In this document: piece after piece, positions 1 to 41,561 of the stretch
Position numbering within the stretch: the stretch's first letter is position 1
How the letters are laid out: every line of letters starts with the position of its first letter
From: Mytilus edulis
Lineage: Eukaryota
Reading direction: 5' to 3'
Assembly: GCF_963676685.1 (NCBI RefSeq)
Contig: NC_092350.1
Coordinates: 40,486,001 to 40,550,000 of the forward strand
DNA: 64,000 bases
Position numbers and translations under genes: made by a program
The notes under the pieces: generated by a model
Database searches by the model: none
Told to the model about the DNA's origin: nothing
The model's input: the letters and a program-made list of their open reading frames with translations, nothing else

Positions 1-763
1 GTAAAGTGGTTTCATCCACGCTGTGGTCTTCAATGATCGACTGCAGGTACGACTCAGTAGTTGCTGCTTCTGACGAGATCTTCCTCAATCCAAGGTACGT
101 TTGAAGGTCAGTACCGTACCTGTCTATGTCATGTAATTGTTTTTCAGCATGATGTGTATTAGTATTGCTGCTTTCTAGCATCTGTAATGTTTGTTTAATA
201 CTATGATTTGATTCACTTGTTATCTCGATGATTTCATTTCTTATCTTCTTTTCCAATTTATCGAACTGGTCATTAATCTTTTTCTTTGTTTCTATGATCC
301 GGGCTAAAATGTTTTCTTCCTGTCTCTCTAAACTTTCTTGTTGCTTCTTTAATTCACTTTGTAGAGTTTTGATGTTTTGATCAATATCTTTCAAGCTTTG
401 TTTTGTTTCTTGGAATAGTGACGACTTTTTAACGTTTTCTAATACCTTACTAAGGGGTACTATACCTTTGCATTCATCATGATTCTCAATACATTTCAGG
501 CAGAGAAGTTCATCGTGAGCTTTGCAAATCATTTGGTATTGTTCATTATGTTCATTGCACATATTACTCGTTTGAGAAATCGAAGACATTGCCGAGTAAT
601 CCTGAATCGATACAGTAACGTGATGTTTGGACGACCTTGAAAAGCCATGATAATCAGTACAGTCGTCACAAAATGCTTGTTCACATTCGGGGCACCAGAC
701 TGTGGATGGTTTTGTAATATGTCGATGATCACAGATATCACAAAGTTGGTGAGATGCCGCCAT
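1..763 (-). CDS. TRIM-like B-box/coiled-coil(/NHL) protein, array copy 1, partial (runs off window start)
   Basis: ATG at 763-761; open frame MAASHQLCDICDHRHITKPSTVWCPECEQAFCDDC...SEAATTESYLQSIIEDHSVDETTL continues to base 1. Paralogous to the 12577-14259 gene. Splice acceptor (ttttcag) about 10 nt upstream of the ATG. Confidence 0.9.
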   Translation of the reverse strand, partial: MAASHQLCDICDHRHITKPSTVWCPECEQAFCDDCTDYHGFSRSSKHHVTVSIQDYSAMSSISQTSNMCNEHNEQYQMICKAHDELLCLKCIENHDECKGIVPLSKVLENVKKSSLFQETKQSLKDIDQNIKTLQSELKKQQESLERQEENILARIIETKKKINDQFDKLEKKIRNEIIEITSESNHSIKQTLQMLESSNTNTHHAEKQLHDIDRYGTDLQTYLGLRKISSEAATTESYLQSIIEDHSVDETTL

Positions 764-1540
764 TTAAAGTATTCTGAAAAAAAAGACACTGCATATTTTC
801 ATCACCAAGCGTTATATCGAAAAAAAACTTTAATTCTCCTTGTTTTGATCAATCTCAAAAAAAGCCTTGCAGCGAAATGTAAAATTTCGGCAGGTTTTCT
901 GTACGGAATCTGAAAGAAACGTATTCAATATAAAAAGTTGTACCAAGGGCGCATATACGCTTTCTCACTTTAACTCGAATTAAAGTTTTGGATTAATTTA
1001 TTTGATTATCAAGAAATATTATGAACATTGCTCAAGTATAAGCCAAACCGAGCGCCCAATGCCCCAAAAAGACATGCTCACACAGTAGTTCCTATTGAAA
1101 CAAAACATGGACAATTTGACACTATTAAAGCTACCAAGTTAAAAATCGGAAACTTAAAATAAATAGTAATCAAATGGGATTAACACAAATAACCAAATTG
1201 CAGACATTGCATGACAATAGTGACAGCATTTTTGAATTATTGTTTGAAGTTTTGACGACAGATAGACGGGCGGACAACTGTATAACATAATATGTCAACA
1301 GGAAACACAAAAACGTAAACATTTCCGAGGTTGTCTGCATCATAGTAAACAAGACCTCACGAATTCATTCATTTGATTCATTTATCAAAAAAGGTTAATA
1401 CATAGATATATATAGATCGATCATTTTACACAAGAATATTGACTAAAGTGTATGAATAATCTCTGTCGTCTTGATCAAGAACAATTTGAAGAAATGTGAA
1501 AGGATAAATATTAAAACAGAAAACAATCATTTAAAAAGCA

Positions 1541-1680
1541 TGTTTACCTGCAGTCTGTTACAACACCAAATGAATGTATTCGACCAGGAAATACACACCA
1601 GGTAAATTTGATAAACTTCAAGTAATAAAACGCGGCAGATTTTGAATTCATTGATTGATGTCAATAATCGGATAATCAAA
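1541..1680 (-). promoter_or_regulatory. 5' non-coding exon and promoter module of TRIM-like copy 1
   Basis: Minus-strand donor CAG|GTAAAC at 1547, plus the block gtattcgaccaggaa shared with the modules upstream of the other paralogs. Confidence 0.55.
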
Positions 1681-2679
1681 TCATACGTTCCTGCTGCAGA
1701 AACAAGGAAAGAAAATAAATACCTTGCCATTCATACCAGTGGAACAAATTAATTATTATAAATTTTCACCCCAAAGATAATTAAAACACGTACATATTTG
1801 GTAAAGTTTTATCTATTTACAAGTTTTTTGTTTACACATATCTATTGTTTAAGTTTGATAAGGTTGCGAATAATACGGTTACCATGTAAGTATAATCCAC
1901 GTTGTTCACCTTACTGTAAATACTCTTACATGGGTCTCTGGTCGGAAACTGTACGACTCTAGGTACGACTAAGGCTAAACAATGAAAACAAAAAACCATA
2001 ATCAATATTCCAGCATGTTCATTAGTAATTAGATCACAAATAGGACCAATTTTCAAGGTGTTATTTTACTCTTTTTCATACCAGTATCAACACAAGCATA
2101 TTTTGCCATGATTCTCATCACTTTATGAAATGATTCCAATACGAACCCTGGACCATCTCAATTCGAACCAAGCTATTCGAGTGGTACCTGTGATAAACCT
2201 GCTAAATGGGACGATAAAGGCATTGAATGCAATATATATACTTGTAACCAATGGTATCATGTTGTCAGTCAATGTCACCAAGTATGTACCTTTATCAATG
2301 ACTCTGCAGCTGCATTGAATAGACAACTTTCGAGTTCAATGCATTTCCATCAAAAACTTTACTTTTAGTGTAAGTCATCCGTGCGTTTAGGGGCGTCGTC
2401 TCTTCCGTTCCAATGTTGAGCAAGTGGCTGGAAAACTATGATATGCTATATTGCACGACTTTTTTGGCAAATTAAATTCTCATAATTGACAATCAGCACT
2501 GGTGTCATTAGGGAATTATGATCAAGTACCTACAGAACAAACATTATTTCTAGTTTATCCTGCACAATGACGATCACTAAGACGTTTGGTGAACGTTAAT
2601 ATCTGAAAAATGACGTCATAAAGGCGCGCATAGTTAACGAGTATTTTCCGGTGACAGACAAACTCGAAAATGGTCTTTT

Positions 2680-5789: not shown

Positions 5790-6182
5790 TATCAAAATGT
5801 AGTATGATTGCCAATGAGACAACTCTACACGAGAGACCAAATGATACAGAAATGATCAATTATAGGTCACCGTATGATCTTTTACAACGAATAAACCTCA
5901 TACCGCATAGTCAGCTATAAAATGCACCGAGATGATATATGTAAAATAATTCAAACAAAAAGACTAACAGCCCAATTCATGTAAAAAAAAATAATGAACG
6001 AAAAACAAATTTGTAACACAGCAACAACTAAACTACAGGCTCCTGGCCTGGGAAAGGCACATAAAAAGTGTTGTACAATTAGACAATAGTTTGAAGGCCC
6101 CCTACCTCACCTACCATGAAACAGTGGGGTAACAGTACAACATAAAAACAAACTATAAAATTCAGTTGGAAAAAGTCTTAAC
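5790..6182 (+). repeat. Interspersed repeat family A, at the truncation point of TRIM copy 2
   Basis: gtatgattgccaatgagacaactc...ataccgcatagtcagctataaaa...; directly abuts the broken end of the pseudogene. Confidence 0.75.
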
Positions 6183-6578
6183 TTCTTTGGTCAATATCTT
6201 TTAAGCTTTGTTTTGTTTCTTGGAAAAGTGACGACTTTTTAACGTGTTCTATAACCTTTTTAAGTGGAACTATCCCTTTGCATTCATCATGATTCAAAAT
6301 GCATGAAGGACATACAAGTTCATCGTGAGCTTGGCAAACCTTTTGGTATTGTTCATTATGTTCCAGGCACATAATACTGTTTTGTGAAATCGATAAAGGC
6401 ATTGATAAATAGGACTGAATAGATACAGTCATGTGATGTTGGGACAACCTTGACAATCCATGATAATTCTTGCAATCGTCACAAAATGCTTGTTCGCATT
6501 CGGGACACCAGACAAATGACGGTTTTTTTTATTATGTCGATGATCACAGATATCACAAGGTTGCTGAGATCCCGCCAT
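6183..6578 (-). pseudogene. TRIM-like copy 2 pseudogene (B-box region only)
   Basis: ATG at 6578 (MAGSQQPCDICDHRH), +1 frameshift in an A-run near 6525, then ...CLEHNEQYQKVCQAHDELVCPSC...ETKQSLKDIDQ, ending at repeat A. Its 5' exon donor is at 7615. Confidence 0.85.
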
Positions 6579-12576: not shown

Positions 12577-14259
12577 CTAATGTATGGTTTCATATGTGAA
12601 AACAGTTTGTTGTTTGTTTGCAACCAACAGACAATTGCTTCTCCGATCGAAATGAATTGCACTAGGGTTTACCAATCCATCATCCAGAGACAACAACTCT
12701 CTGCTTTGTTGTCCATCGGGAGATATCACCACAACGCGATGTGATGTTGAACAAACAACATACACGTTTCCACTGCTATCTACTGCTAGACCACGTGGAC
12801 ATTTCAGTGTGTTCCCATCTTTAAATTTCCAGATCTGTTTGCCCTGCATGTCATAACATTTAACAGATTCATTACTAGTGTAATAGATTTTGTTATCAAA
12901 GATTTCAATGTAGGACCATGAAAGTAAATTAGACTGGACTATAACTGTACTACTTCTGTCCTGAGGGTTGAGTTTGAGAATACCAATGTTGTTTGCACAA
13001 ACATACAACGAACCATTGTGATAAATTATTCCATAGCATCTAGAGTTTGTTGATATATGCCCCGTTATCCTTTCTGTTTCAATATCGATAATATTGACAC
13101 CATTACCATTCCACAAGTTTGACGTTGTAGCTATTGTTTTATCATGTATAAACGTTACATCAAATGAATGGGCCGGTTCGACTGAGATTTTACCATGTCT
13201 TTTCCAATCAGTTCTGAAGACAGCTATATTTCCGGTAATGTAGTCACTTATTGCAATGTTTCCACTCGGTAATACAACAATTCCTCTTATGTCTAAAATT
13301 CCTATTTTTGTGGCTTTGATTAGGTTTAATTTGATATCAGCAATGGATTTTTTAATTTTTATATCCCCTAACTGGGCCTGTCTATTTTTATACCTGACGA
13401 GATCAATTTTACATAGTATTTTATGTATCGTAACTGATCCAAATTTTTTGCTGTTATTTGTAATGTTGCTTATTTTGTCATCTACTTTGAAGATCAAAGT
13501 CATTTCATCCAAGCTATGATCTCTTATGATCGACTGCAGGTACAACTCAGTAGTTGCTGCTTCTGATGAGATCTTCCGTAATCCAAGGTACGTTTGAAGA
13601 TCGGAAGCGTATCTTTCAATGTCTTTTAGTTGTTGTTCAGCATTGTTTGTGTCACCATTCTTACTTTCTAGTATCTGTAGTGCTTGGTTCATATCATTAT
13701 TTAATTTTGCTGTAATTTCAGAGACTTCATTTCTGATCTTCTCTTCTAATTTATCTAAGTGATTATTAATCTTGTTCCTTGTTTCGCTGATCTGGGACAA
13801 TATTGTTTCTTCTTGCTGCTTTATACCTCCTTGTTGTTTCTTCAATTCATTTTGTAGTATTTCTATATTTCTATTAATATCATTCAAACTGTTTTGTGTT
13901 TCTTGGAAAAGGGACGACATTTTAACGTTTTCTATAACCTTACTTATGGGTATTATACCTTTGCATCCATCATGTTTCTCAATACATTTAAGACAGAGAA
14001 GTTCATCGTGAGCTTGGCAAACCATTTGGTATTGTTCATTATGGTCCATGCATGTATTACTGGTTTGTGAAATAGATGCAGACATCGCCAAATGGTCCTG
14101 AATCGATACAGTCACGTGATGTTTAGACAACTTTGAAAATCCGTGGTAAGCGTTACAATCATCACAAAATGCTTGTTCACACTCGGGACACCAGAAAGTT
14201 GACGATTTGGTAACATGTCGTTGTTCACAGATATCACAGAGTTCCTGGGAAGCTGCCAT
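12577..14259 (-). CDS. TRIM-like protein copy 3: B-box1, B-box2, coiled coil, NHL-type beta-propeller, no RING (560 aa)
   Basis: CDIC..CPECEQAFCDDC..H..H and C..H..C..HDELLCLKC..H B-boxes; heptad region; PRGLAVDSSGNVYV NHL motif. True ATG at 14259 follows acceptor ttttgtag at ~14270; single coding exon. Confidence 0.93.
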   Translation of the reverse strand: MAASQELCDICEQRHVTKSSTFWCPECEQAFCDDCNAYHGFSKLSKHHVTVSIQDHLAMSASISQTSNTCMDHNEQYQMVCQAHDELLCLKCIEKHDGCKGIIPISKVIENVKMSSLFQETQNSLNDINRNIEILQNELKKQQGGIKQQEETILSQISETRNKINNHLDKLEEKIRNEVSEITAKLNNDMNQALQILESKNGDTNNAEQQLKDIERYASDLQTYLGLRKISSEAATTELYLQSIIRDHSLDEMTLIFKVDDKISNITNNSKKFGSVTIHKILCKIDLVRYKNRQAQLGDIKIKKSIADIKLNLIKATKIGILDIRGIVVLPSGNIAISDYITGNIAVFRTDWKRHGKISVEPAHSFDVTFIHDKTIATTSNLWNGNGVNIIDIETERITGHISTNSRCYGIIYHNGSLYVCANNIGILKLNPQDRSSTVIVQSNLLSWSYIEIFDNKIYYTSNESVKCYDMQGKQIWKFKDGNTLKCPRGLAVDSSGNVYVVCSTSHRVVVISPDGQQSRELLSLDDGLVNPSAIHFDRRSNCLLVANKQQTVFTYETIH

Positions 14260-14589
14260 CAAATATATTCTACAAAAAATAGGGAACATTTTTTTTTGTT
14301 ATACTAGATCTGAAAAATGTTCATGTCATTACACTAAGTACATTGCATATTGGTTGTTTATTTATCAATATTTTTAAAAGACTTAGATACATGATGATTT
14401 TACTAGTCTGAATAATGGGTAAAGTTCGTGATAAGACTTACCTGATAAGTACGTTATTCAGTCAAAAGTAAACTTGTCCGGTTATCTATACCAAGTTTTA
14501 TCGAAACACATCCTGTAACCCATTCAATGAAAAGGTAAATACATAGCGTTTTTGGTTTTTATCAAACTGTGGGAATCCGTGATACCGTC

Positions 14590-14950
14590 TTAGAACGGAA
14601 TAAATATCCATTTCACAGATGATATCGGATATATTCCTTTTGCCGTAACTACTATACCGTTCCCTTTTCACGAATGTGACCTACCAAATTTTACTTTTTA
14701 CCGGGTCTGTAATAAGATGAACAACACAACGGGTGCCACAGGTGGAGCAAGATCTGCTTACCCTTCTGGATCACCTTCGATCACCCCATGTTATTGGTAG
14801 AGTTCGTGTTGATTAGGCTTCTAGTTTTCTGTATTGTGTCTTGTGTCCTATAACTTGTCTGTTTGTCTTTTTGATTTTTAGCCATGACATGGTCAGTTTA
14901 TTTTCGAACTATGAGTGTGACTGTCCCTCTGGTATCTTTCGCCCTCCTCT
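14590..14950 (+). repeat. Retroelement-derived 3' fragment in the 5'UTR intron of copy 3
   Basis: Same insertion at the orthologous intron position of copy 5 (28200-28556); absent from copy 6 (~39105-39120). Confidence 0.65.
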
Positions 14951-15011
14951 AGTAATGTCTTAAACCATAATAATTGATGGAATGTAACAGATAAATAACC
15001 AAATACAGAAA

Positions 15012-15130
15012 ATGTTTACCTATAGTCTGTAACAACGCCCAGGTATTCGACCAGGAAGTAAAGACAGGAAACGAGTTACATAACGTTGATTAATGTCAAG
15101 TATTTAAACGCGGGAGTTTTTAAATTTCAT
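15012..15130 (-). promoter_or_regulatory. 5' non-coding exon and promoter of TRIM-like copy 3
   Basis: Donor TAG|GTAAAC at 15019; conserved ccaggaagta (ETS core), ttacataa (C/EBP-PAR bZIP-like), tatttaaa (TATA-like on the minus strand). Confidence 0.6.
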
Positions 15131-15870
15131 TACACTGAGTATGAATTGATGCTAGACTGTTACATATTTTTTTTTAAAGAAAAAAAAGAACAAAAATACA
15201 TATTTTGCATACCAATTCCGTTTTCAATGCGCACTGCATTATGTTTCCATGTTATACGAGCATTTACGAGTTCAAGTGCGGTTAACACCAATAATAACCC
15301 TATCATTTAAATCACGTCCTCATTTCTAAAGTGTTATCTGTATTTTATTTGTTCATATAAAATAATCATTGTTTTCTTTTCATTACATTGCGAATAAAAA
15401 TGTATAATTTTGTGTTAAGGAAAAGTAAATTTTAAATGACAAACAAAAACAGATAAAAATGATATAAGAAACTTAATACTTCTGTTAACAAATTTCTACA
15501 TTTATAGAAGGAAACTATCTATGGAACAAACCAATATAATAGCACTAAAACATTATTTAAAAGAAAACTTATTAATAGAAAAAAATATATTCTATAAAAA
15601 ATAAATTACTCAGTAGGGCAGAAAACTGCTACCCGTGGACTCCTTTACTTTTATAAAAACAAATAGACTCCACATATAATGTATATATATTTCATATCCA
15701 AACAGCCTAATGTCTTAAAATCCTTTTCTGCAATGTATCAAAAAGCTGTGTCTATCAAATATATTATATATCTTCTGTTTAGTTTATATAACTATTATGC
15801 ATACAAGTGTGTATAACTCATTATGTTCATGTGCAAATAAGAAAAAAATGAAATTTAATATAAAAAAAAC

Positions 15871-15901
<31 letters not shown>

Positions 15902-16200: not shown

Positions 16201-16469
16201 TTAAATATATTTCATTTCGTTTGAAATTGGGGTTTTCCCGTTAGGTATTTGTAGTTATTATATATAGATGGGAACTAGTGGAACTAGTTTTAGAACTAGT
16301 TCTGCAGGAGTATGTACTATTTATAAAGTCTGATGTTACGTGTACAAGGCACGAGAAAAGTTTTGGCGGTTTCTACGGGTGGGGTACTATATAAAGTTTG
16401 GCATTTAAATGTATTAGTATCGAAGGTGCTCGCAGTTAGGTCGTATAGTACGAAGTTAGTCACATTAAT
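16201..16469 (+). repeat. Split direct repeat A1 (269 bp)
   Basis: Identical by eye to 20646-20914. Confidence 0.95.
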
Positions 16470-16480
16470 TTACGTTTATC

Positions 16481-17227
16481 ATGTCCGATACTGGTTCCGA
16501 CCATGATGATTTGAGACCGTCCAAAAGTAAAGAGAGTACATCAAATACCGAGTTGTCTACTGATGGTGCCGTATCTTTGTTTTCAACAGTTTTAACGAAC
16601 GCTCTAGAACAGCAGAAAGTTAATTTAATCAAACATTTCGAAAACCAATTTATACAACCAGTGAAGTCAACCGGTGTTTCGACTCCAGATTTCGTTTTCA
16701 AGAGAGAGGGACATCGCATTCAGTACTTATTTAATACAGAAAGGTCCGACACGATTTCAAGAATAGAGAAACTGATAAGGTCCAAATCGTACGTTCAGGC
16801 GTTGGAGGTGTTAGCAGAAGAGAAAGAAACCTTGCGGAAGAGGAACAAAATTGTGAAAATCGCCGACAAACATGGATGGGACACCGTTAATGAATATCTT
16901 GATAGTCCTTTGGCTGACGATAAGGATGATGCAGCCAATTTGCGTTCCGCTATTGCCAGTGCTTCTAGAAAAAGGAAAAGTTCAAAACCGTATGATCGGC
17001 CCAGCAATAAGCCTACAGAAAGTGGAAATAAATTCAACGCAAAGAATTTTTTTCGTGGGATTAGTCAAAACAGTGGATTCGGAGAAAATGCAGGTCAGTC
17101 ACAGAACAGATCCGGGAAATGCTTCTATTGCAATCAACAAGGACATTTCGCCAGATACTGTCCATTCAAGGCAAGTCCGTCAGCAACAGTCAGCACGGCC
17201 CCAAAGGAACAAGAAAAGTCACAGTAA
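16481..17227 (+). CDS. gag: Gag-like protein with CCHC zinc knuckle
   Basis: CFYCNQQGHFARYC (CX2CX4HX4C); KIADKHGWDTVNEY block typical of DIRS-type gag. Confidence 0.85.
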   Translation: MSDTGSDHDDLRPSKSKESTSNTELSTDGAVSLFSTVLTNALEQQKVNLIKHFENQFIQPVKSTGVSTPDFVFKREGHRIQYLFNTERSDTISRIEKLIRSKSYVQALEVLAEEKETLRKRNKIVKIADKHGWDTVNEYLDSPLADDKDDAANLRSAIASASRKRKSSKPYDRPSNKPTESGNKFNAKNFFRGISQNSGFGENAGQSQNRSGKCFYCNQQGHFARYCPFKASPSATVSTAPKEQEKSQ

Positions 17228-19229: not shown

Positions 19230-19490
19230 AAATTTAGATGATTATCTATTTAGATACAATTATATATGTGTATGTCACACAGTGTGAAATGTTTACGGGT
19301 GAACAATATAGTTGTTCTGTGGTATAATATACAGTGTTATGATGGATTATATATGAACTTTCACGAGCTATGTTGCACAGTGTAACATAAAGAATCACAC
19401 AGTGTGATTAGAGGATGATGTATGTAGATATGAGATGTATATATTAATAGAACTTTAATGTTAAGATACATGTATGTATAAAGATTTTAA

Positions 19491-20510: not shown

Positions 20511-20539
20511 TTCTGAACTGTTTCATTTCCTTTGATTCG

Positions 20540-20649
20540 ATGTTACTGCGAGCAACTAACTCTATTTCTGTGTTTGTTTTGTTTAAAGCCTATTGAATTT
20601 AGAGTAGAAATACTTTAAATTCGGACGAGCAGGGCGAGGGAGAATTTAA
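20540..20649 (+). repeat. Split direct repeat B1 (110 bp)
   Basis: Identical by eye to 21015-21124. Confidence 0.95.
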
Positions 20650-20914
20650 ATATATTTCATTTCGTTTGAAATTGGGGTTTTCCCGTTAGGTATTTGTAGT
20701 TATTATATATAGATGGGAACTAGTGGAACTAGTTTTAGAACTAGTTCTGCAGGAGTATGTACTATTTATAAAGTCTGATGTTACGTGTACAAGGCACGAG
20801 AAAAGTTTTGGCGGTTTCTACGGGTGGGGTACTATATAAAGTTTGGCATTTAAATGTATTAGTATCGAAGGTGCTCGCAGTTAGGTCGTATAGTACGAAG
20901 TTAGTCACATTAAT
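20646..20914 (+). repeat. Split direct repeat A2
   Basis: Copy of A1; overlaps B1 by TTAA. Confidence 0.95.
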
Positions 20915-21014
20915 GGCTGCTATGTTTATTACATGTATTTATATTATGTTGTTTGTATCGAAGAAACTTGTATTATAGAGTGAAATAAAATGTGTATCGC
21001 AAGAGAAGATAATA

Positions 21015-21124
21015 ATGTTACTGCGAGCAACTAACTCTATTTCTGTGTTTGTTTTGTTTAAAGCCTATTGAATTTAGAGTAGAAATACTTTAAATTCGGA
21101 CGAGCAGGGCGAGGGAGAATTTAA
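21015..21124 (+). repeat. Split direct repeat B2 (element 3' end)
   Basis: Copy of B1; ends gaatttaa and can form the hairpin ttaaattc..gaatttaa. Confidence 0.95.
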
Positions 21125-21961
21125 CTCTACATATAACCCTTCTAGTTAATCATCACGTCATTTAAAAAAAAAACTACCAAAGGTAATTTTATTATAGATC
21201 TATCAAAAACTAATAGTTTCACAAAGTAAATTTCACTAGTTAAACATGTTAAAACTATAGGTAACAAATTTTTAACCTATGTTCATTACTTATTACGAGT
21301 GAATGGCAAAATGTCGATTTGGGAAGATAACTTCCAAAAATATCTGCTAGAAAAGAAGTCAACTATAAACTGACGTAAAAGTCGACATGCAGAACGAGTC
21401 TAATAATTTGCTTATTTTTAAAACTTTATATAATTAGCATTAGCAGTTCAGAATTTTGTTAATAATATGAGTTTTTAATTCAAAAGATGAATGACGTCAC
21501 CGGCACGAACCCTAGTTTACTTAAGTTATTTGGTGGTATGATGTACAGTCATGTTACTATATTGGAGATCTAAAAACACCGTAGACATATTGGAACGAAC
21601 CAGGACCCAAGAAAAGCTATGGTACCGTGTGGATGTAAATGTCACCCTACGCATACAGGCACGAATACATATGCGATGAAAACTAATTTTGGTATCAATA
21701 TTTAATGTTTATGTAGTCTTTGAATTGTAAATAATACATTTTCATATAGCCATCATTGTTTTTTGGTAAAGTTTTCTAATGCATATTATTGAAAAAAATC
21801 TATATGGTTCAAAAACTCATATGGTCCTGCCCCGTTAATAACCGAAAGGAGTATATACTCATATGGTCCAACCATACGCGTATGGTCGGACCATATAAGT
21901 ATACGCATACGGTCATGACCATACGCGTATTTTCCAAATACTCATATGGTCCGGAACATAT

Positions 21962-22180
21962 ATCGTTTATCAAATACTAAGGCTTTTCTACCTCAGGAAT
22001 AGATATTCTTAACTGTATTTGACAAAACTTTTAGGGAATGGTAGTCCTTAATGCTCTTCAACTTCGTAATTTATTTGGCCTTTTTAACTTTTTGGATTCT
22101 AGCGTCACTAATGAGTCTTTTGTAGACGAAACGACGCGCGTAAATATAAAATTCAATCCTGGTATATATGATCTGTTTAT
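21962..22180 (+). mobile_element. Retrozyme-like repeat (family B) with degenerate hammerhead
   Basis: gcgtca-ctaatga-gtct-tttgt-agac-gaaac at ~22102-22132. Another degenerate copy at ~22632-22677; both duplicated at +2585. Confidence 0.6.
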
Positions 22181-22789
22181 TCATAATTTCAAAAATTAAA
22201 TGATTATGAATAACCCCTTACATTTTTTGAAGTGATTATGCATAATTTCAAAAATGTTAGTAATTATATGAACAGTGATTCTCCATAATCCCTGAAAAGT
22301 TTTAAGTTATACAGAGACAGCAAAACTCTCTCATCTAAAGACACCACGCTGTCCAAATTACGCTATTGAGATATGACATTATATAACCATCGACTATGTG
22401 CCGTACTTGGTAATACAAAAACTAAGGCCAAAATATATCAACTTATTGAATGAAAGTTAGAAAATGGGAGAGGGCGAGCTCTACCAAGCAATTCAACTGT
22501 TTCGTGCTGAATACAAAAAAAAATATATTATCTGAAATTGACCTTATATTGTGTTTATAAGTTGCAGCTAAGATAGATTCAACTATACATGATATTTTGT
22601 ACTTGTTTTGGCTTTCAATCTTTTTCATCTGAGCGTCACTGGTTATTCTTGTGTGGACGAAACGCATGTCTGGCGTATTATATTTTAAACCTCGTACCTT
22701 TTGTTAGCTATTATTCGTGTTTTTATTTGTATTGTAGTCCTCGGACTTCTTTTGAACTGAATTTTAATGTGAGTGTTATTATGCGTTTA

Positions 22790-23130
22790 CTTTTCTACAT
22801 TGGCTAGAGGTATAGGGGAAGGGTTGAGATCTCATAAACATGTTTAACCCGCCGCAATTTTGCTCCTGTCCCAAGTGAGGAACTTCTGGCCTTTGTTAGT
22901 CTTGTATGATTTTTAATTTTAGTTTCTTGTGAATAATTCGGAGTTTAGAATGACGTCCATCATCACTGTACTAGTATACATATTTTTAAGGGGCCAGCTG
23001 AAGGACGCCTGCGGGTGCGGAAATTTCTCGCTACATTGAAGACCCATTGGTGGCCTTCGGCTGTTGTCTGCTCTATGGTCGGGTTGTTGTCACTTTGACA
23101 CATTCCCCATTTCCTTTCTAAATTTTACTG
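22790..23130 (+). repeat. Interspersed repeat family C
   Basis: aggggccagctgaaggacgcc...ttgacacattccccatttcc also at ~4080-4180, 25375-25715, 35305-35380, 61560-61740. Confidence 0.65.
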
Positions 23131-23601
23131 TCTTGTAATGTTGTAATTTTAATGTTATATTTAACATTGCCATTGAAGCGTCAGGTTTGGCATGCCACAA
23201 AACCCATCATTTTTTTTCTTAAAATTTCCTGCACCAAGTCAGGAAAATGGCCATTGTTATATTATAGTTCGTTTCTGTGTTGTGTTTCTGTTGTGTCGTA
23301 GTTCTCTTATATTTTTCCTGAGTTTCTCTCAGTTTTAGTTTTTAACCCGGATTTTTTTTTTCTAAATCGATTTATGAATTTCGAACAACGGTATACTACT
23401 GTTGCCTTTAGTTATTATATAAAAACTTAAACTGTTCAGAAGAGCATAATAGTTTATATACGAATACCAAACTAAGAGAGATTTACTAAGATGGTCAACT
23501 GCAACATGCAGATGTAGATAATAAAAGTAATATTTATTGTAAAACAATTTTAACGAGTGTTTGTTCCTTTGAATATAATCATGTGACACGAATAACAAGG
23601 T

Positions 23602-24358
23602 TTAATTTTCAACTCCATAGATGAAAATGGTTTGATTATAATTTGCAATTAAAAGACTATTGGCTTTTCTGTCGAAATGAATCGGACCAGGACTTTCCAA
23701 TCCTTCATCTTTAGACAAAAGATGTCTGTTTTGTTGTCTATCAGGGGATATCACTACGACTCGATTTAATTCTCTACAAGCTACATACACGTTTCCGGAG
23801 TTATCAACTGCTAAGCCTCGTGGACACTTCAAGATAGTCTCATCTTTAAATATCCAAACTGTCTTTCCGTCCATGTCACAACAGGTAACACTTTTAGTGC
23901 CATCGTTGGTAAAAAACATTTTATTATCAAAAATATCAATACACGACCATGACGGTAAATCAGAAATGACGATAGCTGTAGTACTGCCGTCCTGAGGGTT
24001 TATTTTGAAAATTCCCTCACTCATTGCACAAACGTACAATGACCCATCGAGGTGTTTTATTCCATAGCACTGATAGTTTGTTGGAATAAACTTTGATATT
24101 TTCTTTTCCTTAATATCGATAATACAGACGCCTTTGTGTTTGTGCAAAGGTGATGTTGCAGCTAACGTTCTGTCATCTATATATGTTATATCAAATGAGT
24201 TGGCATTATTAACTATGACTTTACTAAGTTTTACGCCGTCAGAACCAAAGATCATTACTTCCCCGTGAGAGTGAGTATAGTCACTCAAGGCGATGTTTCC
24301 GCTTGGTAGAGAAACTATTCCTTTAATGCTTTGAACTGTTGTTTTTATGGTTTTGTTT
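23602..24358 (-). pseudogene. TRIM-like copy 4: propeller-only partial duplicate of copy 5
   Basis: Near-identical to the C-terminal ~250 aa of 26187-27881 (one V/M change); lacks B-boxes, coiled coil and promoter. Confidence 0.85.
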
Positions 24359-26186: not shown

Positions 26187-27881
26187 TTAATTTTCAACTC
26201 CATAGATGAAAATGGTTTGATTATAATTTGCAATTAAAAGACTATTGGCTTTTCTGTCGAAATGAATCGGACCAGGACTTTCCAATCCTTCATCTTTAGA
26301 CAAAAGATGTCTGTTTTGTTGTCTATCAGGGGATATCACTACGACTCGATTTAATTCTCTACAAGCTACATACATGTTTCCGGAGTTATCAACTGCTAAG
26401 CCTCGTGGACACTTCAAGATAGTCTCATCTTTAAATATCCAAACTGTCTTTCCGTCCATGTCACAACAGGTAACACTTTTAGTGCCATCGTTGGTAAAAA
26501 ACATTTTATTATCAAAAATATCAATACACGACCATGACGGTAAATCAGAAATGACGATAGCTGTAGTACTGCCGTCCTGAGGGTTTATTTTGAAAATTCC
26601 CTCACTCATTGCACAAACGTACAATGACCCATCGAGGTGTTTTATTCCATAGCACTGATAGTTTGTTGGAATAAACTTTGATATTTTCTTTTCCTTAATA
26701 TCGATAATACAGACGCCTTTGTGTTTGTGCAAAGGTGATGTTGCAGCTAACGTTCTGTCATCTATATATGTTATATCAAATGAGTTGGCATTATTAACTA
26801 TGACTTTACTAAGTTTTACGCCGTCAGAACCAAAGATCATTACTTCCCCGTGAGAGTGAGTATAGTCACTCAAGGCGATGTTTCCGCTTGGTAGAGAAAC
26901 TATTCCTTTAATGCTTTGAACTGTTGTTTTTATGGTTTTGTTTAGCTTTAATGTGATATCAGCAATTGATGTTTTCATTTTTACCTCTACTATTTGAGCT
27001 TGTTTACTTTTATGCCTGACGAGAGAAGTTTGACAAGTAGTTGTCTGTACCTTTACTGGTCCAAATGTTTTGATATTATTGATAATGTTGCTTATTTTGT
27101 CATTAATTTGCAGAATCAAAGTAATTTCATCCAAGCTATGATCTCTAATGATCGACTGCAGGAACGACTCAGTAGTTGCTGCTTCTGACGAGATCTTCCG
27201 CAATCCAAGGAACGTTTGAACGTCGGTTGCATTCCTGTCCATATCTTTTAATTGTTGTTCAGCATCGTTAGTGTTACCACTCTTATGTTCTAGTATCTGT
27301 AGAGTTTGGTTCATATCATTCTTTAATTTTGCTGTAATGTCAGAGACTTCATTTCTTATCTTCTCTTCCAATTCATCTAAGTGATCATTAATCTTGTTCC
27401 TTGTTTCGCTGATCTGGGACAATATAGCCTCTTCTTGTTGCTTGATACTTCCTTTTTGTTTCGTTATTTTATTTTGTAGCATTTCTATATTTCTATTTAT
27501 ATCGTTCAAACTTTGTTGTGTTTCCTGGAAAAGTGACGACTTTTTAACGTTTTCTATAACCTTACTAATGGGTATTATACCTTTGCATCCATCATGTTTC
27601 TCAATACATTTAAGACAGAGAAGTTCATCGTGAGCTTGGCAAACCAATTGGTATTGTTCATTGTGGTCCATGCACGTATTACTGATTTGTGAAATAGATA
27701 AAGACAGCGCCGAATTGTCCTGAATCGATACAGTCACGTGATGTTTAGACAACTTTGAAAATCCGTGGTAAGCGTTACAATCATTACAAAATGCTTGTTC
27801 ACACTCGGGACACCAGAAAGTTGACGATTTGGTAACATGTCGTTGTTCACAGATATCACAGAGTTCCTGGGAAGCTGCCAT
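26187..27881 (-). CDS. TRIM-like protein copy 5 (564 aa), B-box x2, coiled coil, NHL-type propeller
   Basis: True ATG (MAASQEL) at 27881 after acceptor ttttggtag; same domain motifs as copy 3. Confidence 0.93.
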   Translation of the reverse strand: MAASQELCDICEQRHVTKSSTFWCPECEQAFCNDCNAYHGFSKLSKHHVTVSIQDNSALSLSISQISNTCMDHNEQYQLVCQAHDELLCLKCIEKHDGCKGIIPISKVIENVKKSSLFQETQQSLNDINRNIEMLQNKITKQKGSIKQQEEAILSQISETRNKINDHLDELEEKIRNEVSDITAKLKNDMNQTLQILEHKSGNTNDAEQQLKDMDRNATDVQTFLGLRKISSEAATTESFLQSIIRDHSLDEITLILQINDKISNIINNIKTFGPVKVQTTTCQTSLVRHKSKQAQIVEVKMKTSIADITLKLNKTIKTTVQSIKGIVSLPSGNIALSDYTHSHGEVMIFGSDGVKLSKVIVNNANSFDITYIDDRTLAATSPLHKHKGVCIIDIKEKKISKFIPTNYQCYGIKHLDGSLYVCAMSEGIFKINPQDGSTTAIVISDLPSWSCIDIFDNKMFFTNDGTKSVTCCDMDGKTVWIFKDETILKCPRGLAVDNSGNMYVACRELNRVVVISPDRQQNRHLLSKDEGLESPGPIHFDRKANSLLIANYNQTIFIYGVEN

Positions 27882-28616
27882 CAAATATATTCTACCAAAA
27901 AAAGGAACTTTTTTTTTCAATACTAGATGTGAAAAATCTTCATGTTATTACACTAAGTACATTATATATTGGATGTGTACTAATCCATATTTAAGACTTA
28001 TAGATACATGATGATTTTACTATTCTGAATAACTGTTCATGATAAGACTAACCTGAGAAGTATGTTATTCGGTCAAAGTAATTTTTTCAGGTTATCTATA
28101 CCAAATATTAACGAAACACATCATGTAAACCATTCAATGAAAAGGTAAATACAGCCTGATTTTGACCAAAATGTGGGAATCCGTGGTACCGTCTGAGAGC
28201 TATTGAACATCCATGTTACAGACGATATCGGATATATTCATTATGTCGTAACTACTATCCCATTCCCTTTAGCGAATGTGACCTACCAAATTTGACTATT
28301 TACCGGCTCTGTAATATCATGAACAACACAACGGGGGCCACAGGTGGAACAGGATCTGCTTACCCTTCTGGATCACCTGCGATCAACCCCAGTGTTTGAT
28401 TGGGTTTGTATTGATAAGTCTTTAGTTTTCTATGTTGTGTCTTGTGTCCTATAATTTGTCTGTTTGCCTTTTTCTTTTTTAGCCATGGCATTGTCAGTTT
28501 GTTTTCGATCTATGAGTTTGACTGTCCCCCTTGTATCTTTAGCCCCTCCTCCTCCAGTAATGTATTAAACCATAATAATTGATGGAATGTAACAGTTAAA
28601 TAACCGAAGACATCAA

Positions 28617-28740
28617 ATGTTTACCTATAGTGTGCAACAACGCCCAGGTACTCGACCAGGAAGTAACGACAGGAAACGAGTTACATAACGTTGATTAATT
28701 TCAAGTATTTAAACGCGGGAGTTTTTAAATTTCATTACAC
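28617..28740 (-). promoter_or_regulatory. 5' non-coding exon and promoter of copy 5
   Basis: Donor at 28624; near-identical to 15012-15130. Confidence 0.6.
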
Positions 28741-30901
28741 TGAGTATAAATTGATGCTGCACTATTAAAGAAAGTAAGAAAAAGGGACATACTTTGCAAA
28801 CAACTTCCGTTTCCAATGTGCATTGTATTATGTTGAGATGTTATACCAGCAATTACTATTCTAATTGTCTTAAACACCATTAATAGCTCTATCATTTAAA
28901 TCACGTACTATTTTGTAAAGTTTTATCTGTATTTAATTTGCTCCTTAGAAATATTCATCGTTTTCTTTTCATTGCATTGCGAATAAAATATTTAATTTTG
29001 TAGTCAATAAAAAGTGTAACAAAAATACAGAATTCCAAAGTAAATTCAAAACAGCGAAAGTCTATAAATACTGACGAAAGCAAACACTGTCAATCAACAC
29101 GACAATTGACCTGGTACAGGGATTTTCCAACGAAAATGGTGGGTTACATTTGAATATCTCGAAAGCTAAACATGCCACTTGCATGTCAATTTTTTTCAGC
29201 TCGGTTATATGGAAAGATTTTGGTGAGAAACCAAACCAGATATAATAGGTCAGTGTCATGATAATTGCAATTTAGCAGCAAAAAAACTGCAAACATACAA
29301 CACAACTGATTAAAAATATTAACAGATATACAAATAAATCGAACGAATATGCCAACAAAAAAGGTGAAGACCATTAATTTTTTATATAACGTAAAAAAAC
29401 AACTTCATGTCGTTGATAAACATAAGGCCGTATGTAGTTTATTCTTTTTCGACAAGCTTAAAATTGAATAAATAAAACTACAATGGTAAACAAAATAGAA
29501 ACAACACTGTAAAAAGCTATTGTGTCCGAATCTCACATCAGCCTGACCCACCGGCAGTAGGAACGCCCAAACTCAAAACTCCCGATGGCAGAATGCATAA
29601 ATACCGAGTCACGTAAATTTAAGTCATACACAAAAGAAACATTAAAGAACGAAGACAATTCACGAGAAAACTAAAAGTAATATAAAAATATACACACCTC
29701 CAACATATATAATCTATAACTCTTGAATCATGTGTAAAGAAGACAGTGTCCATGTATCTATTAGGTCTGTGTACTTTCCAATAAGTAAAGAATGAGTCGT
29801 TCTTTGACAAAACCTTGGCTCCTCGAACTTTTGCTCAGACTCCTTTGACGTTTTACAAAGCCTGAATAGCAACTGCAAACTCTTAAATACCGTATGTGAT
29901 ATAAGACATGTATACCCAATATATGCATAAAGTTGGTATGTTGCTGCTACGGTGAAGACAATTCAAATTTTTAAAATAGTGAAATGTCTCGTTGGTCAAA
30001 GATTTTGTTAGACAATTTTGCCGTTTGTAAAAATAAAGGATTTGTAGAAGAATATTATGCTTTAAATTTTGATATGTATGTTTTTAAAGATGTTTTAAAT
30101 ATGATTTTATAGAATAAACTATTTCATTTTTATGCATTGACCATTGTCTCTCCATTGTAATTATTATGAATAATTCCTTTTTTTGTAGTGATGATAAAAT
30201 AAATCATTTCTGAAAGTATAATGTTGCCAGTGATTCTACATAATCCCTGAAAATTCCATGGATAATGCAAAATCCCTAATTATACACATTTACTGTACAA
30301 TATGTATCAAGGAGGCAACACACCGCGACTCATCATAAGACACCAAGCTGTACACATATTACTATTGAAATATGACATACAACAATTGACAATGTGTTTT
30401 ACTTGGTAAAAAATAAAATTAGGTCATTGTCAGAAAGATATCAACTTTTCATATGAGGCTAAGAAACTTGGAGAGGGCGAGGTTTGACAAACTCTTCAAC
30501 TGTTTATAGTCGAATACCAAAAAAAAAACAAATGATATTACATAAATAGTTATCAAAGGTATTACCAATGTTGTTTTAACTGATCGAGCGGAGTTTACGT
30601 TTTGCATAAGGACAGTCTATTTGAAGATGTGTGTGATAAGGATGATTGCCGTTATATTTATTACTGATTTCTAAATCACCTATCAGTTTCATCAAAGTAA
30701 TTTACAAAACAATGACTGGACACTTCATTGATGAGTTTATCCTAAAAACACCTATCTATAGATGGACTGGTTTATTGTGAGCGAATCAGTTAAACTCCGC
30801 CCAGTCAAGTGAAATAAATTGAGTAATACCAGGAGCCTGTAATTCAGTGGTTGTCGTTTGTTTATATGCTACATATTTGTTTTTCGTTCATTTTTTTTTT
30901 A

Positions 30902-35908: not shown

Positions 35909-37594
35909 TTAATTTATGATTTCGTATGTACAAACAGTTTGCTTTTCATTTGCAATCAACAGACAATTGCTATTTCGGTCATAATGCATCGCAAATGGAC
36001 TTTCCAATCCATTGTCACTAGACAAAAGTTGTCTGTTTTGTTGTCCATCAGGAGATACCACTACAACTCGATGTAGTGTTGAACACGCAATGTACACGTA
36101 TCCGCTGTTATCTACTGCTATACCATGTGGATTTCTCAATATATTTTTGTCTTTAAATGTCCATATCGCCTTACCGTTCTTGTCACAACAATTCACGGTT
36201 TCAGTTTGTTGGTTTGTATAATAGATTTTATCATCAAACATTTCAATATATGACCATGAAGGTAAATCAGTCGTGATAATATCAGTACTAGCTCCGTTCT
36301 GGGGGTCAACTTTGAATATACCCATGGTAGATGCACAAACGACCAATGAACCATTGTGGTATGTTATTCCATAGCACAGAGCGATTGTTGGTATGAACTT
36401 AATTACGTTCTCTGTATTAATATCTATGATATTTACACCTTTACATGTTTCTGTACTTGACGTTGTAACTACAGTTTTATTATCAATATATGTTACATCT
36501 ACTGGAAAAGCCGACTCAAACGAGCCTGTATTTAGTATTTTCCAATCGGTACTGAATACAACTACATTTCCGCTACTGTAATCTGTTAAAATAATGTTTC
36601 CACTAGGTAGAACAACGATTCCTTTGATATTTAACAGTTTTGTTTTAATGGTTTTCCTTAACCTTAATTTGATTTCAGTGATAGATTTTAGTCTAGATCC
36701 TACCAGTTGAGCTTGCTTGTTTTTGTATGTGACGAGGGGAAGTTGAAATGGCGACTTCTGTGCCTTTATCGACCCAAATGCAGGGACTTCATCGATTATG
36801 TTGTCCATTTTGTTATCAGTTTTGAAAATTAAAGTAATTTCAGTCATGCAATCATCTCCAAAGATCGACTTCAGGTACGACTCGGTAGCAGCTGCTCCTG
36901 CCGAGATATGCCGTAATCCTAGGTACGTTTGAATGTCGGTCGCGTACATTTCAAGATCCTTTATTTGTTGTTCAGCATTTTTGGTGCTATCATTCTTGCT
37001 TTCTAGGATCTGAAGTGTTTGGTTCTTATCATAATTCAGTTTTGCTGTTACCTCAGCAACTTCATTTCTGATCTTCTTTTCCAATGTATCTAAGTGGTCA
37101 TTAATCTTGTTCCTGGTGTCGCTAATCTGGGCAAATATTGTCTCTTCTTGCTGCTTTATACTTCCTAGTTGTTTATTAAGTTCACTCCGCAGAGCTTTTA
37201 TATTACCATTTATATCTTTCAAACTGTGTTGTGTTTCCTGGAAAAGTGACGACTTTTTAACGTTTTCTATAATCTTACTTGTGGGTATTATACCTTTGCA
37301 TCCATCATGGTTCTCAATACATTTAAGACAGAGAAGTTCATCGTGAGCTTGGCAAACCATTTGGTATTGTTCATTGTGTTCCATGCACATATTACTGATT
37401 TGTGAAATAGATGAAGACAGCGCCAAATGGTCCTTAATCGATACAGTCACGTGATGTTTAGACAACTTTGAAAATCCGTGGTAAGTGTTACAATCATCAC
37501 AAAATGCTTGTTCACACTCGGGACACCAGAAAGCGGACGATTTGGTAACATGTCGTTGGTCACAGATATCACAAAGGTTATGGGTAGCTGCCAT
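35909..37594 (-). CDS. TRIM-like protein copy 6 (561 aa), B-box x2, coiled coil, NHL-type propeller
   Basis: Intact ORF with both B-boxes and PHGIAVDNSGYVY; acceptor ttttgtag upstream of the ATG. Confidence 0.93.
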   Translation of the reverse strand: MAATHNLCDICDQRHVTKSSAFWCPECEQAFCDDCNTYHGFSKLSKHHVTVSIKDHLALSSSISQISNMCMEHNEQYQMVCQAHDELLCLKCIENHDGCKGIIPTSKIIENVKKSSLFQETQHSLKDINGNIKALRSELNKQLGSIKQQEETIFAQISDTRNKINDHLDTLEKKIRNEVAEVTAKLNYDKNQTLQILESKNDSTKNAEQQIKDLEMYATDIQTYLGLRHISAGAAATESYLKSIFGDDCMTEITLIFKTDNKMDNIIDEVPAFGSIKAQKSPFQLPLVTYKNKQAQLVGSRLKSITEIKLRLRKTIKTKLLNIKGIVVLPSGNIILTDYSSGNVVVFSTDWKILNTGSFESAFPVDVTYIDNKTVVTTSSTETCKGVNIIDINTENVIKFIPTIALCYGITYHNGSLVVCASTMGIFKVDPQNGASTDIITTDLPSWSYIEMFDDKIYYTNQQTETVNCCDKNGKAIWTFKDKNILRNPHGIAVDNSGYVYIACSTLHRVVVVSPDGQQNRQLLSSDNGLESPFAMHYDRNSNCLLIANEKQTVCTYEIIN

Positions 37595-37670
37595 CTCATT
37601 ATACTACAAAAAATAAGACAGCTTATATGTTTTGCAACATGTGAAAATGATCGTGTTATTACACTAAATA

Positions 37671-38383
37671 CAGGACACTTCATAAACATCTAAATTTTGC
37701 CTGTATTTTTCAACCTATAATGAATAAAGTCCTAAACTATGGGAATATATGTGCATTTAAACATATTTATCATATACACACTGTGTAAATTGTAAATTAA
37801 CATGAAATTGTTGTGCAGTGGCCAAACCGGTTCTTGGGTGGAACACTCAATTTTCAAAAAAATTACTGGAAGCCTGCTAGATGACCTAAATTATTTTAAA
37901 TTAGTATGGACAAATACTGTCACATGTAATGCAGTGCAAGCTAATGTTGATGTTTCAGAAAATGTATTGATTTACGAGTTTCAGTTAATTTTATGTGTCT
38001 AAGTGAACGAATATATAAGGTACAATACAGTACGTATTGGGCAATTATGACATTGAAACATATATATGTGACAAAACAACATTAGCTTGACGTACTGCAT
38101 TACTTGTAACCGTATTCGTTTATACCAATTTTAATCAAATAAAGTCGTGTCGAAGGCATCCCGATTTTTTGAAAAATTTAGCATGTTTAGTGTTCACCTC
38201 AAGAACTGGTTTGGCCACCACATACACATGATACAATTTCAAGTTTATTTACAATTTACTGATACACAGTGCATGCATATATGTTACGTATGTTTAAATG
38301 AACATATGTTCCCATAGTTTAGGACTTTATGTTTTATAGGTTGAAAAATGCAGGCAAAGTTTAGATGTTTATGAAGTGTCCTA
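37671..38383. mobile_element. Fold-back (long imperfect palindrome) MITE in the intron of copy 6
   Basis: caggacacttcataaacatctaaa / tttagatgtttatgaagtgtcct; complementarity continues towards the centre at ~38020; inserted at a TA and absent from paralog introns. Confidence 0.8.
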
Positions 38384-39177
38384 TCATTATTTTGACTTTA
38401 GCGGAACATTGGAAGTCGGAATAAATTAAATATAGGCGAAGTTCGTGATTAGTACTGATGTTATTCAGTCAAAAGTAAACGTTTCCGGTATCTGTACATA
38501 GTCTTAACGAAGCACATCATGTAACCCAACCCATTCAATAGAACGGTAAATACATTTGGCTTGTTTTTTATCAAGCACAGCAGCTAACAAGCGATAGCCT
38601 TTCAAAAAGTGCTATATTCGACTCTTAGCTGATGAAAATGGAAAGAGCTCTCGATCACTTTGTAGATTAATTCATTTACTAGAATAGCCACGTGCATCAA
38701 TAAACAAATTTTACAACACACGTGAGGTCACGCGTTATGAACTTCTAGTATCGTTTAACGTTGTTGTTTACTCCAGAAGGTTCGTCTATTTATACATGTT
38801 ATAGATAAAAGTTAACTCTGTAAAATCTAATTGCTTAAATAGAGAAGACAAATCCGATACTCTACGGGATTGAAGGACATTTACTAGGTTTGGATTGTCC
38901 TAACCAATCAATAAATTTTGATTATTCCCGTCTCGTAATATCTTCAAATCAGGTAGCAAGAAAAATTCACGCCCTAAGTGTTCATCGTTCAATTCTTAAT
39001 TATTAAGAGTCCTAGGAGTCGATAATGACCGTGTGAAATGTATCAAGTCCAAATGCCGAACGGCATGAAGAGAATATGTGAGGAGAGTGGTGAGATTCGT
39101 AATACCGTCTGAAAGCTAGTAATGTTTCAAACTATAATAATTGGTGGAATGTAACAGATAAATAACTGAAAACAAAC

Positions 39178-39300
39178 AATGTTTACCTGTAGTCTGTAAC
39201 AACGCCCAGGTATTCGACCAGGAAGTTTAAGACAGGTAAAGGGTTACATACCGTTGATTAATGTCAAGTATTTAAACGCGGGAGATTTTAAATTTCCTTG
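39178..39300 (-). promoter_or_regulatory. 5' non-coding exon and promoter of copy 6
   Basis: Donor CAG|GTAAAC at 39186; conserved ggtattcgaccaggaagt...gttgattaatgtcaagtatttaaacgcggga. Confidence 0.6.
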
Positions 39301-41554: not shown

Positions 41555-41561
41555 TCTAAAA

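What the first reader, a model, noticed from the sequence alone, without database searches (positions are those of the whole stretch)
1..39300. TRIM-like array with frozen N-terminus and hypervariable beta-propeller: candidate diversified immune receptor locus
Seen: six tandem copies. Copies 3 and 5 differ at only 8 of the first 120 residues, whereas their propellers are only about half identical by eye, with indels in loops (DYITG vs DYTHSHG; SNLWNGNG vs SPLHKHKG vs SSTETCKG). Two copies are truncated. Known: bivalves have large RING-less B-box/NHL TRIM expansions, and TRIM C-terminal domains are ligand-recognition modules. Inference: birth-and-death evolution with diversifying selection on the recognition surface, while the oligomerisation module is kept compatible for hetero-oligomers.
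Basis: partly seen in the sequence, partly recalled or inferred. Interest (0 to 1): 0.7.

Follow-up and report, generated by a model that had tools for sequence, protein, structure and literature searches.

The report
Mussel TRIM-like array with copied B-boxes
Three neighbouring mussel zinc-finger/propeller genes have nearly identical front ends, silent DNA letters included, which likely means that the DNA was copied between them, while one predicted face of the propeller changes fast, as would suit a family of intracellular sensors whose immune role is untested.

Summary
In detail: six minus-strand copies of a RING-less B-box/B-box/coiled-coil/NHL-propeller gene of Mytilus. Four are intact (copy 1 is only cut by the window edge) and two are fragments. 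They are half of a 12-copy, 88-kb array in a very large family. Copies 3 and 5 match at 112 of 120 N-terminal residues and 55% in the propeller. The 'frozen' N-terminus is best explained by gene conversion, not protein-level selection: silent divergence among copies 3, 5 and 6 is 0.04-0.08 over the B-boxes but 0.68-0.79 in the propeller; the other three intact copies lack the tract; the coiled coil is not homogenised; and the tract holds 17 replacement against 4 silent changes. Variation concentrates on the predicted top (binding) face: b-c loop omega 0.96 against 0.21-0.36 in bottom loops, with the same contrast in 7 of 7 arrays. Positive selection is not significant here (M8 vs M8a p=0.22) but strong in one sister array (2dlnL 71.5). 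An immune role is inferred only. The design resembles fish finTRIM and NLR-B30.2 families. The scan noted similar arrays on other DNA before.

The parts
1..763 (-). copy 1, 5' part of the coding exon (gene intact, 560 aa, continues left of the window)
1515..1652 (-). weak match (70%) to the exon-1/donor block of copy 3; likely first exon of copy 1
6181..6578 (-). copy 2, pseudogene: B-boxes only, frameshift near codon 19, stop near codon 130; M. galloprovincialis counterpart (66 of 69 residues identical) continues into coiled coil and propeller
12577..14259 (-). copy 3, intact single coding exon, 560 aa: B-box1, B-box2, coiled coil, NHL propeller
12580..13332 (-). six-bladed NHL propeller of copy 3 (residues 310-560), top-face loops variable
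13924..14238 (-). homogenised B-box tract of copy 3 (about codons 8-112)
14270..15019 (-). 750-nt GT-AG intron in the 5' leader of copy 3
   Evidence: joint 14269/15020 in one contig of run X13, RNA by guess
14961..15400 (-). exon-1/promoter block shared by copies 3, 5 and 6 (80-83% identical)
16201..21124 (+). intact tyrosine-recombinase retrotransposon with split direct repeats, inserted between copies 3 and 4 (bystander)
21756..24358 (.). first unit of a 2.6-kb tandem duplication (second unit 24339-26943), 4 differences away from the junction
23605..24357 (-). copy 4, propeller-only fragment of copy 5 without its own start or upstream exon
26187..27881 (-). copy 5, intact, 564 aa; mosaic of a copy-3-type 5' part and a propeller of another lineage
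27546..27860 (-). homogenised B-box tract of copy 5
28566..28988 (-). exon-1/promoter block of copy 5 (by homology)
35909..37594 (-). copy 6, intact, 561 aa
37259..37573 (-). homogenised B-box tract of copy 6
39129..39556 (-). exon-1/promoter block of copy 6 (by homology)

Best explanation
This is one tandem array of a very large mussel family of RING-less B-box/coiled-coil/NHL-propeller proteins, in which gene conversion likely copied the B-box DNA among copies 3, 5 and 6, while the loops on the predicted top face of the propeller diverge fast and likely give each copy a different binding target, as would suit cytosolic immune sensors or substrate adaptors. Shown: architecture, single coding exon, 6 intact and 6 broken copies, silent-site homogenisation limited to the B-box tract, conflicting domain trees, high omega in top-face loops, omega above 1 in a sister array. 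Inferred: conversion as the cause (about 0.9); selection rather than relaxed constraint on the top face (about 0.7 for the family, unproven in this array); coiled-coil dimers with B-box-mediated higher-order assembly, and reliance on a partner for any ubiquitin ligation (from known TRIMs, untested); immune targets (about 0.55). The conversion is probably a by-product of the B-box being the best conserved stretch and is tolerated; it need not be selected for hetero-oligomers.
For: B-box vs propeller silent differences: 5/72 vs 81/166, 6/72 vs 76/170, 3/72 vs 81/168; Fisher p 6e-11, 8e-9, 7e-13; none of the other 12 of 15 pairs reaches p<0.001. Runs tests place tracts at codons 2-104, 8-112, 8-132. 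Between-array pairs show no low silent rate in the B-box (pS 0.77 vs 0.72, 333 pairs). M. californianus P0006 groups with copy 5 in the propeller (75%, bootstrap 96) but not in the B-box (76%), where copies 3, 5, 6 group (bootstrap 90). Among 331 within-array pairs, 20 have a significantly lower B-box pS and 4 a lower propeller pS; 12 of 20 tracts start at codon 25 or earlier and none starts in the propeller. Propeller pLDDT about 82-96; top Foldseek hits are the NHL domains of Thin, NHL-2, Brat, TRIM2. b-c loop omega exceeds bottom-loop omega in 7 of 7 arrays, p from 4e-5 to 1e-15. C14 61-Mb array: 2dlnL 71.5, omega 4.7 on 7% of sites, against at most 14 in 6 recombination simulations. Tree-free test on 20 disjoint pairs: b-c pN/pS 1.22, p=0.008. 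B-box and TolB-like propeller domains are enriched among dispensable mussel genes (PMC7653742 Table S52).
Against: In this array omega above 1 is not shown: M8 vs M8a 2dlnL 0.60 (6 intact copies), 1.22 (7 copies) and 6.28 (10 copies, 4 of them broken), all inside the simulated range; b-c omega 0.96 is indistinguishable from 1. The C7 72-Mb signal (7.3) is also inside that range, and its b-c omega is 0.66. With 30 pairs the tree-free excess falls to 1.07, p=0.17. Loop indels can inflate omega. The 5' bias of conversion is not universal: mean pS is lower in the B-box in 6 of 10 arrays, pairs are not independent, and 3 tracts run deep into the propeller. No ligand, tissue or induction data. The 17:4 excess of replacement changes in the tract is unexplained.
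Confidence: 0.6

Rival explanations
1. Relaxed constraint in a redundant birth-and-death array: top-face loops drift at the neutral rate and conversion is incidental; there is no selection for new specificities.
For: b-c loop omega 0.96 and M8 vs M8a not significant here; 6 of 12 copies broken; b-c omega is not significantly above 1 in 5 of 7 arrays.
Against: Bottom loops are also surface loops yet stay at 0.19-0.58; omega 1.62 (p=0.0002) and a class at 4.7 in the C14 61-Mb array; between-species counterparts differ at 63 of 201 top-loop positions vs 23 of 151 bottom-loop positions (p=0.0005). These show face-specific change but do not exclude relaxed constraint on that face in this array.
Confidence: 0.2
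2. One reading: selection keeps the oligomerisation module compatible so that copies form hetero-oligomers; conversions were fixed because they allow mixed assemblies with several specificities.
For: The tract covers both B-boxes and ends near the start of the coiled coil; copies 3, 5, 6 also share an exon-1/promoter block; N-terminal tracts recur in 3 other arrays. The same idea was raised as speculation for zebrafish NACHT domains (bioRxiv 10.1101/022061, passages).
Against: Replacement changes outnumber silent ones 17:4 in the tract, more than expected at the family B-box omega of 0.20-0.28 (p 0.0006-0.006); the coiled coil is 64-79% identical; only 3 of 6 intact copies share the tract.
Confidence: 0.12
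3. The propellers bind diverse endogenous targets (RNAs, transposon products or cytoskeletal proteins) like Brat, LIN-41 or TRIM2, with no role against pathogens.
For: Closest solved folds are RNA- or protein-binding developmental TRIM-NHLs; a 'TRIM2/56' transcript is muscle-enriched in M. galloprovincialis (PMC4581086, passages; family membership unknown).
Against: Those proteins are low-copy and conserved (recalled); here the top face is the most variable surface and carries no consistent basic excess (K+R 5-10 vs D+E 6-11); the domains are enriched among dispensable genes.
Confidence: 0.15
4. A DNA- or RNA-level element overlapping the B-box exon constrains silent sites.
For: Low dS with omega near 1 in the tract is what silent-site constraint would give.
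Against: No overlapping open frame of 110 codons or more there; the other three intact copies and unlinked pairs have ordinary B-box dS; the M. californianus relative of copy 5 lacks the tract.
Confidence: 0.04

Closest known systems
TRIM-NHL proteins (Brat, Thin, NHL-2, Mei-P26, TRIM2/3, LIN-41/TRIM71)
   Same: Two B-boxes, long helix, six-bladed NHL propeller closed by the first strand after the linker (LIN-41 topology in PMC5908797, passages); RING-less like Brat (recalled).
   Different: 12-18% identity in the propeller; no filamin domain; single coding exon; at least 150 copies in the genome; the face that is a basic RNA-binding patch in Brat/LIN-41/Mei-P26 is here the most variable one.
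Fish finTRIM, btr and trim35/hltr families; TRIM5alpha (PMC3137616, passages)
   Same: Multigene TRIM subsets with a conserved N-terminal scaffold, a C-terminal domain whose binding loops are under positive selection, and recombination between copies.
   Different: Those have a RING and a B30.2 beta-sandwich; this family has no RING and an NHL propeller, and no antiviral function is shown.
Zebrafish NLR-B30.2 family (bioRxiv 10.1101/022061, passages)
   Same: Domain-limited gene conversion inferred from dS, homogenising the oligomerising domain within groups.
   Different: Unrelated scaffold; there B30.2 is also homogenised across groups, here no tract starts in the propeller.
Dispensable B-box and TolB-like propeller genes of Mytilus galloprovincialis (PMC7653742, Table S52)
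   Same: Probably the same expansion at annotation level: 1133 B-box and 1410 propeller genes, both enriched among dispensable genes.
   Different: The passages and table rows seen give domain counts only, no analysis of selection or conversion.

Membership tests
TRIM (RBCC) ubiquitin ligases | N-terminal RING finger | tested here: not met
   No RING family in Pfam scan; no RING-like pattern in six frames of the window; in-frame stop 22 codons before the ATG in the spliced leader of copy 3.
TRIM (RBCC) ubiquitin ligases | One or two B-boxes | tested here: met
   zf-B_box 23.0-25.1 bits (cut-off 24.1); 15 Cys/His invariant and H84 nearly invariant in 63 sequences.
TRIM (RBCC) ubiquitin ligases | Long coiled coil after the B-boxes | tested here: met
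   Continuous helix 116-247 in the model; dimer formation itself not tested.
TRIM (RBCC) ubiquitin ligases | E3 ligase activity | not testable with these tools
   Needs a ubiquitination assay; no RING present.
TRIM-NHL (class C-VII) | C-terminal six-bladed NHL propeller | tested here: met
   Pfam NHL above cut-off; 24 strands in six blades; Foldseek ranks 1-12 are NHL domains, E 1e-14 to 6e-13.
TRIM-NHL (class C-VII) | Conserved basic top surface that binds RNA | tested here: inconclusive
   Residue counts only: K+R 5-10, D+E 6-11 on top-face positions, which vary between copies; no electrostatics computed.
Diversified intracellular sensor families (finTRIM / NLR-B30.2 type) | Large lineage-specific tandem arrays with pseudogenes | tested here: met
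   12 copies here, 6 broken; at least 150 matches genome-wide, 150 of 1600 candidates scored.
Diversified intracellular sensor families (finTRIM / NLR-B30.2 type) | Positive selection on the loops of the binding face | tested here: inconclusive
   Met in the C14 61-Mb array; omega about 1, not significant, in this array.
Diversified intracellular sensor families (finTRIM / NLR-B30.2 type) | Domain-limited gene conversion | tested here: met
Diversified intracellular sensor families (finTRIM / NLR-B30.2 type) | Induction by infection, pathogen ligand or protective effect | not testable with these tools
   Only contigs without tissue or treatment labels were available.

The most novel reading that the evidence does not exclude
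Mussels have turned the TRIM-NHL scaffold into a repertoire of hundreds of cytosolic pathogen sensors: the NHL top face is the variable recognition surface, and repeated 5'-biased conversion sorts copies into groups that share promoter and B-boxes, so that dimers with different propellers co-assemble into mixed lattices - an invertebrate counterpart of TRIM5/finTRIM built on a propeller instead of B30.2.
Probability: 0.2. Interest if true: 0.75.

Novelty: new variant of a known kind. Interest (0 to 1): 0.45.

Why it matters
Hundreds of these genes are annotated as 'TRIM2/3/56/71-like' in bivalves, and TRIMs recur in oyster disease-tolerance transcriptomes (PMC9892467, passages), yet I found no study of how the family evolves. 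The result names the surface to test (b-c and d-a loops), corrects the reading of N-terminal identity (conversion, not freezing), and warns that B-box reads cannot tell copies 3, 5 and 6 apart. If the sensor role holds, this would be one of the largest cytosolic recognition repertoires in an invertebrate. The evolutionary design itself is known from fish TRIM and NLR families.

Tried and rejected
Complex prediction of three copies of residues 1-130 of copy 3: no verdict; not evidence either way. RING exon upstream: none found. Close propeller donors elsewhere in the genome: all 10 matches at E<=1e-55 lie in this array (150 of 1437 candidates scored). Assembly artefact for copy 4: not favoured; run X1 has a contig ending exactly at the junction (26943) with about double depth, while contigs of X4, X6 and X9 run through it; X1 may not be independent of the assembly. 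Low intrinsic silent rate of the B-box: rejected. Positive selection in B-box or coiled coil: 2dlnL 0.5 and 4.0 (C14 61-Mb), 0 and 0 (this array). Copy 4 starting at the propeller boundary: explained by a short imperfect repeat at both junctions; no sign that it is a gene. ETS-like, IRF-like and kappaB-like words in the shared upstream block were seen by eye from recalled consensus motifs and not tested. Missing RNA cover of copy 3 in X17 and X3 is no evidence of absence. Five of 70 fetched family loci gave no full frame and were dropped; 6 genes of this array were added to give 71. PMC10514466 text passages and 4 supplements, and PMC8382680 passages, held nothing on this family beyond one B-box orthogroup row. 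Paper searches found no study of the family; most subscription journals and bioRxiv supplements are not covered.
Full report
What is there. Six copies of one gene lie on the minus strand. Database relatives are Mytilus proteins. Copies 3 (560 aa), 5 (564 aa) and 6 (561 aa) are intact single coding exons; copy 1 is cut by the window edge but intact in the genome. Copy 2 keeps only the B-boxes, with a frameshift and a stop; its M. galloprovincialis counterpart runs on into coiled coil and propeller. Copy 4 is the 3' half of copy 5 inside a 2.6-kb tandem duplication. The duplication junction appears in 1 of 4 DNA runs laid and is crossed without a break in the other 3, so it looks like a real, polymorphic event. 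The array continues leftwards: 12 copies over about 88 kb, 6 intact. A B-box search of the genome gave 150 matches of 150 scored, from 1600 candidates, most in long open frames and in arrays on several chromosomes.

Anatomy. Two B-boxes with 15 invariant Cys/His in 63 sequences, a predicted helix at 116-247, a low-confidence linker, and a six-bladed propeller at 310-560 with pLDDT about 82-96. Foldseek ranks NHL domains first. No RING was found, in the coding exon or upstream, and no hydrophobic leader or membrane segment. One contig of run X13 joins 14269 to 15020, a GT-AG intron in the leader of copy 3; contigs cover copy 5 in 4 of 4 runs and copy 3 in 2 of 4 (X8, X13). Only X17 is on record as RNA, the others are guessed. 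Copies 3, 5 and 6 share an upstream block at 80-83% identity; copy 1 matches it only over 150 bases at 70%.

The 'frozen' N-terminus. Protein-level selection cannot do that. The other 12 of 15 pairs have B-box dS 0.37-0.70. Unlinked pairs have no low B-box pS. Domain trees conflict: M. californianus P0006 and the copy-2 lineage group with copy 5 in the propeller but not in the B-box. So copy 5 is a mosaic, and the tract spread after those propeller lineages had split. The M. trossulus counterpart of copy 6 is closer to copy 3 (98%) than to copy 6 (94%) in B-box1, a hint of repeated events resting on 1 vs 3 differences. Ordinary purifying selection does act on the B-box (omega 0.22-0.30). Inside the tract there are 17 replacement and 4 silent changes, more replacements than that omega predicts (p 0.0006-0.006). 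This speaks against selection for identity; it may reflect chance, tract ascertainment, or selection keeping copy-specific residues while silent sites are overwritten. It is unexplained.

Is it general? In 71 intact genes from 12 clusters, 20 of 331 within-array pairs have a significantly lower pS in the B-box and 4 in the propeller, 3 of those with one very distant gene. Twenty pairs carry a significant tract; 12 start at codon 25 or earlier, none in the propeller, 3 run deep into it (the number of pairs tested was not printed, at most 331). Mean pS is lower in the B-box in 6 of 10 arrays, and this array is the extreme. Pairs are not independent. The bias is real but moderate, and is expected if conversion starts where identity is highest.

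The propeller. Pairwise omega is 0.30-0.53, so the domain as a whole is constrained. Loop classes were set from the model; the top face (b-c and d-a loops; convention recalled) lies opposite the linker, like the binding surface of LIN-41 (PMC5908797, passages). In this array omega is 0.96 in b-c loops, 0.47 in d-a loops, 0.21 and 0.36 in bottom loops, 0.28 in strands; b-c exceeds the bottom loops in 7 of 7 arrays, and exceeds 1 significantly in 2. With my own implementation of site models, M8 beats M7 here (p=0.014) but not M8a (p=0.22); adding broken copies gives 6.3, within the range of 6 recombination simulations (up to 14). The C14 61-Mb array gives 71.5, omega 4.7, and all 10 sites with posterior above 0.9 fall in or at b-c and d-a loops; three separate segments give 5.0, 44.2 and 23.1. 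A tree-free test gives pN/pS 1.22 for b-c loops in 20 close pairs (p=0.008) and 1.07 in 30 pairs (p=0.17). Between species, counterparts differ twice as often in top as in bottom loops; orthology is assumed from similarity.

Mechanism. Most likely each protein is a cytosolic dimer whose propeller top face binds a target, with the B-boxes driving higher-order assembly and any ubiquitin ligation supplied by a partner; these steps come from known TRIMs (recalled) and were not shown here. Duplication, loss and unequal exchange renew the array; conversion copies the conserved 5' part, and the binding face escapes it and diverges. An immune target is the best guess from copy number, face-specific change, enrichment of these domains among dispensable mussel genes (PMC7653742: passages and Table S52 rows) and the link of TRIM2/3-like transcripts to parasite tolerance in oyster (PMC9892467, passages; family identity unknown).

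Known kinds and novelty. It works like fish finTRIM/btr families (PMC3137616, passages) and shows the domain-limited conversion described for zebrafish NLR-B30.2 (bioRxiv 10.1101/022061, passages). It is not a canonical TRIM ligase, since the RING is absent; it is TRIM-NHL-like by fold. The expansion is known as domain counts. Nine searches of the held library found no study of its selection or conversion. Earlier notes of this scan report mosaic copies and a variable face in other mussel arrays; these are unchecked notes, not support. New here: the dS evidence that N-terminal identity is conversion, its 5' bias across arrays, and a face-specific selection test. Verdict: real, a new variant of a known kind, interest 0.45.

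Noticed in passing
window 16201-21124 (+): Intact tyrosine-recombinase retrotransposon: gag zinc knuckle, RT-RNase H-methyltransferase, recombinase; split direct repeats A1 16201-16469, B1 20540-20649, A2 20646-20914, B2 21015-21124, each pair 100% identical, TTAA at both ends (PAT-like by recalled classification). A second full copy at 100% (rounded) lies on C4, with internally deleted copies at 99-100%; contigs of run X8 cover much of it. Recently active.
   Followed up: partly
window 13924-14238, 27546-27860, 37259-37573: 17 replacement vs 4 silent changes inside the homogenised B-box tract; unexplained.
   Followed up: partly
window 47485-48681 (-): Single-exon rhodopsin-family GPCR (Pfam 7tm_1).
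   Followed up: no
window 41170-42504 and 63430-64000: 441-bp tandem repeat (3.1 copies, 95%) and a 136/266-bp tandem repeat.
   Followed up: no
L049, L050, L054 (C14 about 60.9-61.0 Mb); L072, L073 (C7 56.4 Mb): Gene pairs with 93-100% identical B-box and coiled coil but 69% identical propellers: whole-propeller swaps.
   Followed up: partly
P0003: Protein from another M. edulis record with a copy-3-like propeller, copy-3/5-type B-box2 and a different B-box1; no such copy in this array, suggesting presence/absence variation.
   Followed up: partly
window 14961-15400: Shared upstream block holds ACTTCCTG (ETS-like) and GAAAAGAAAA (IRF-like) words in copies 3, 5, 6; motif labels recalled, chance not tested.
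   Followed up: no
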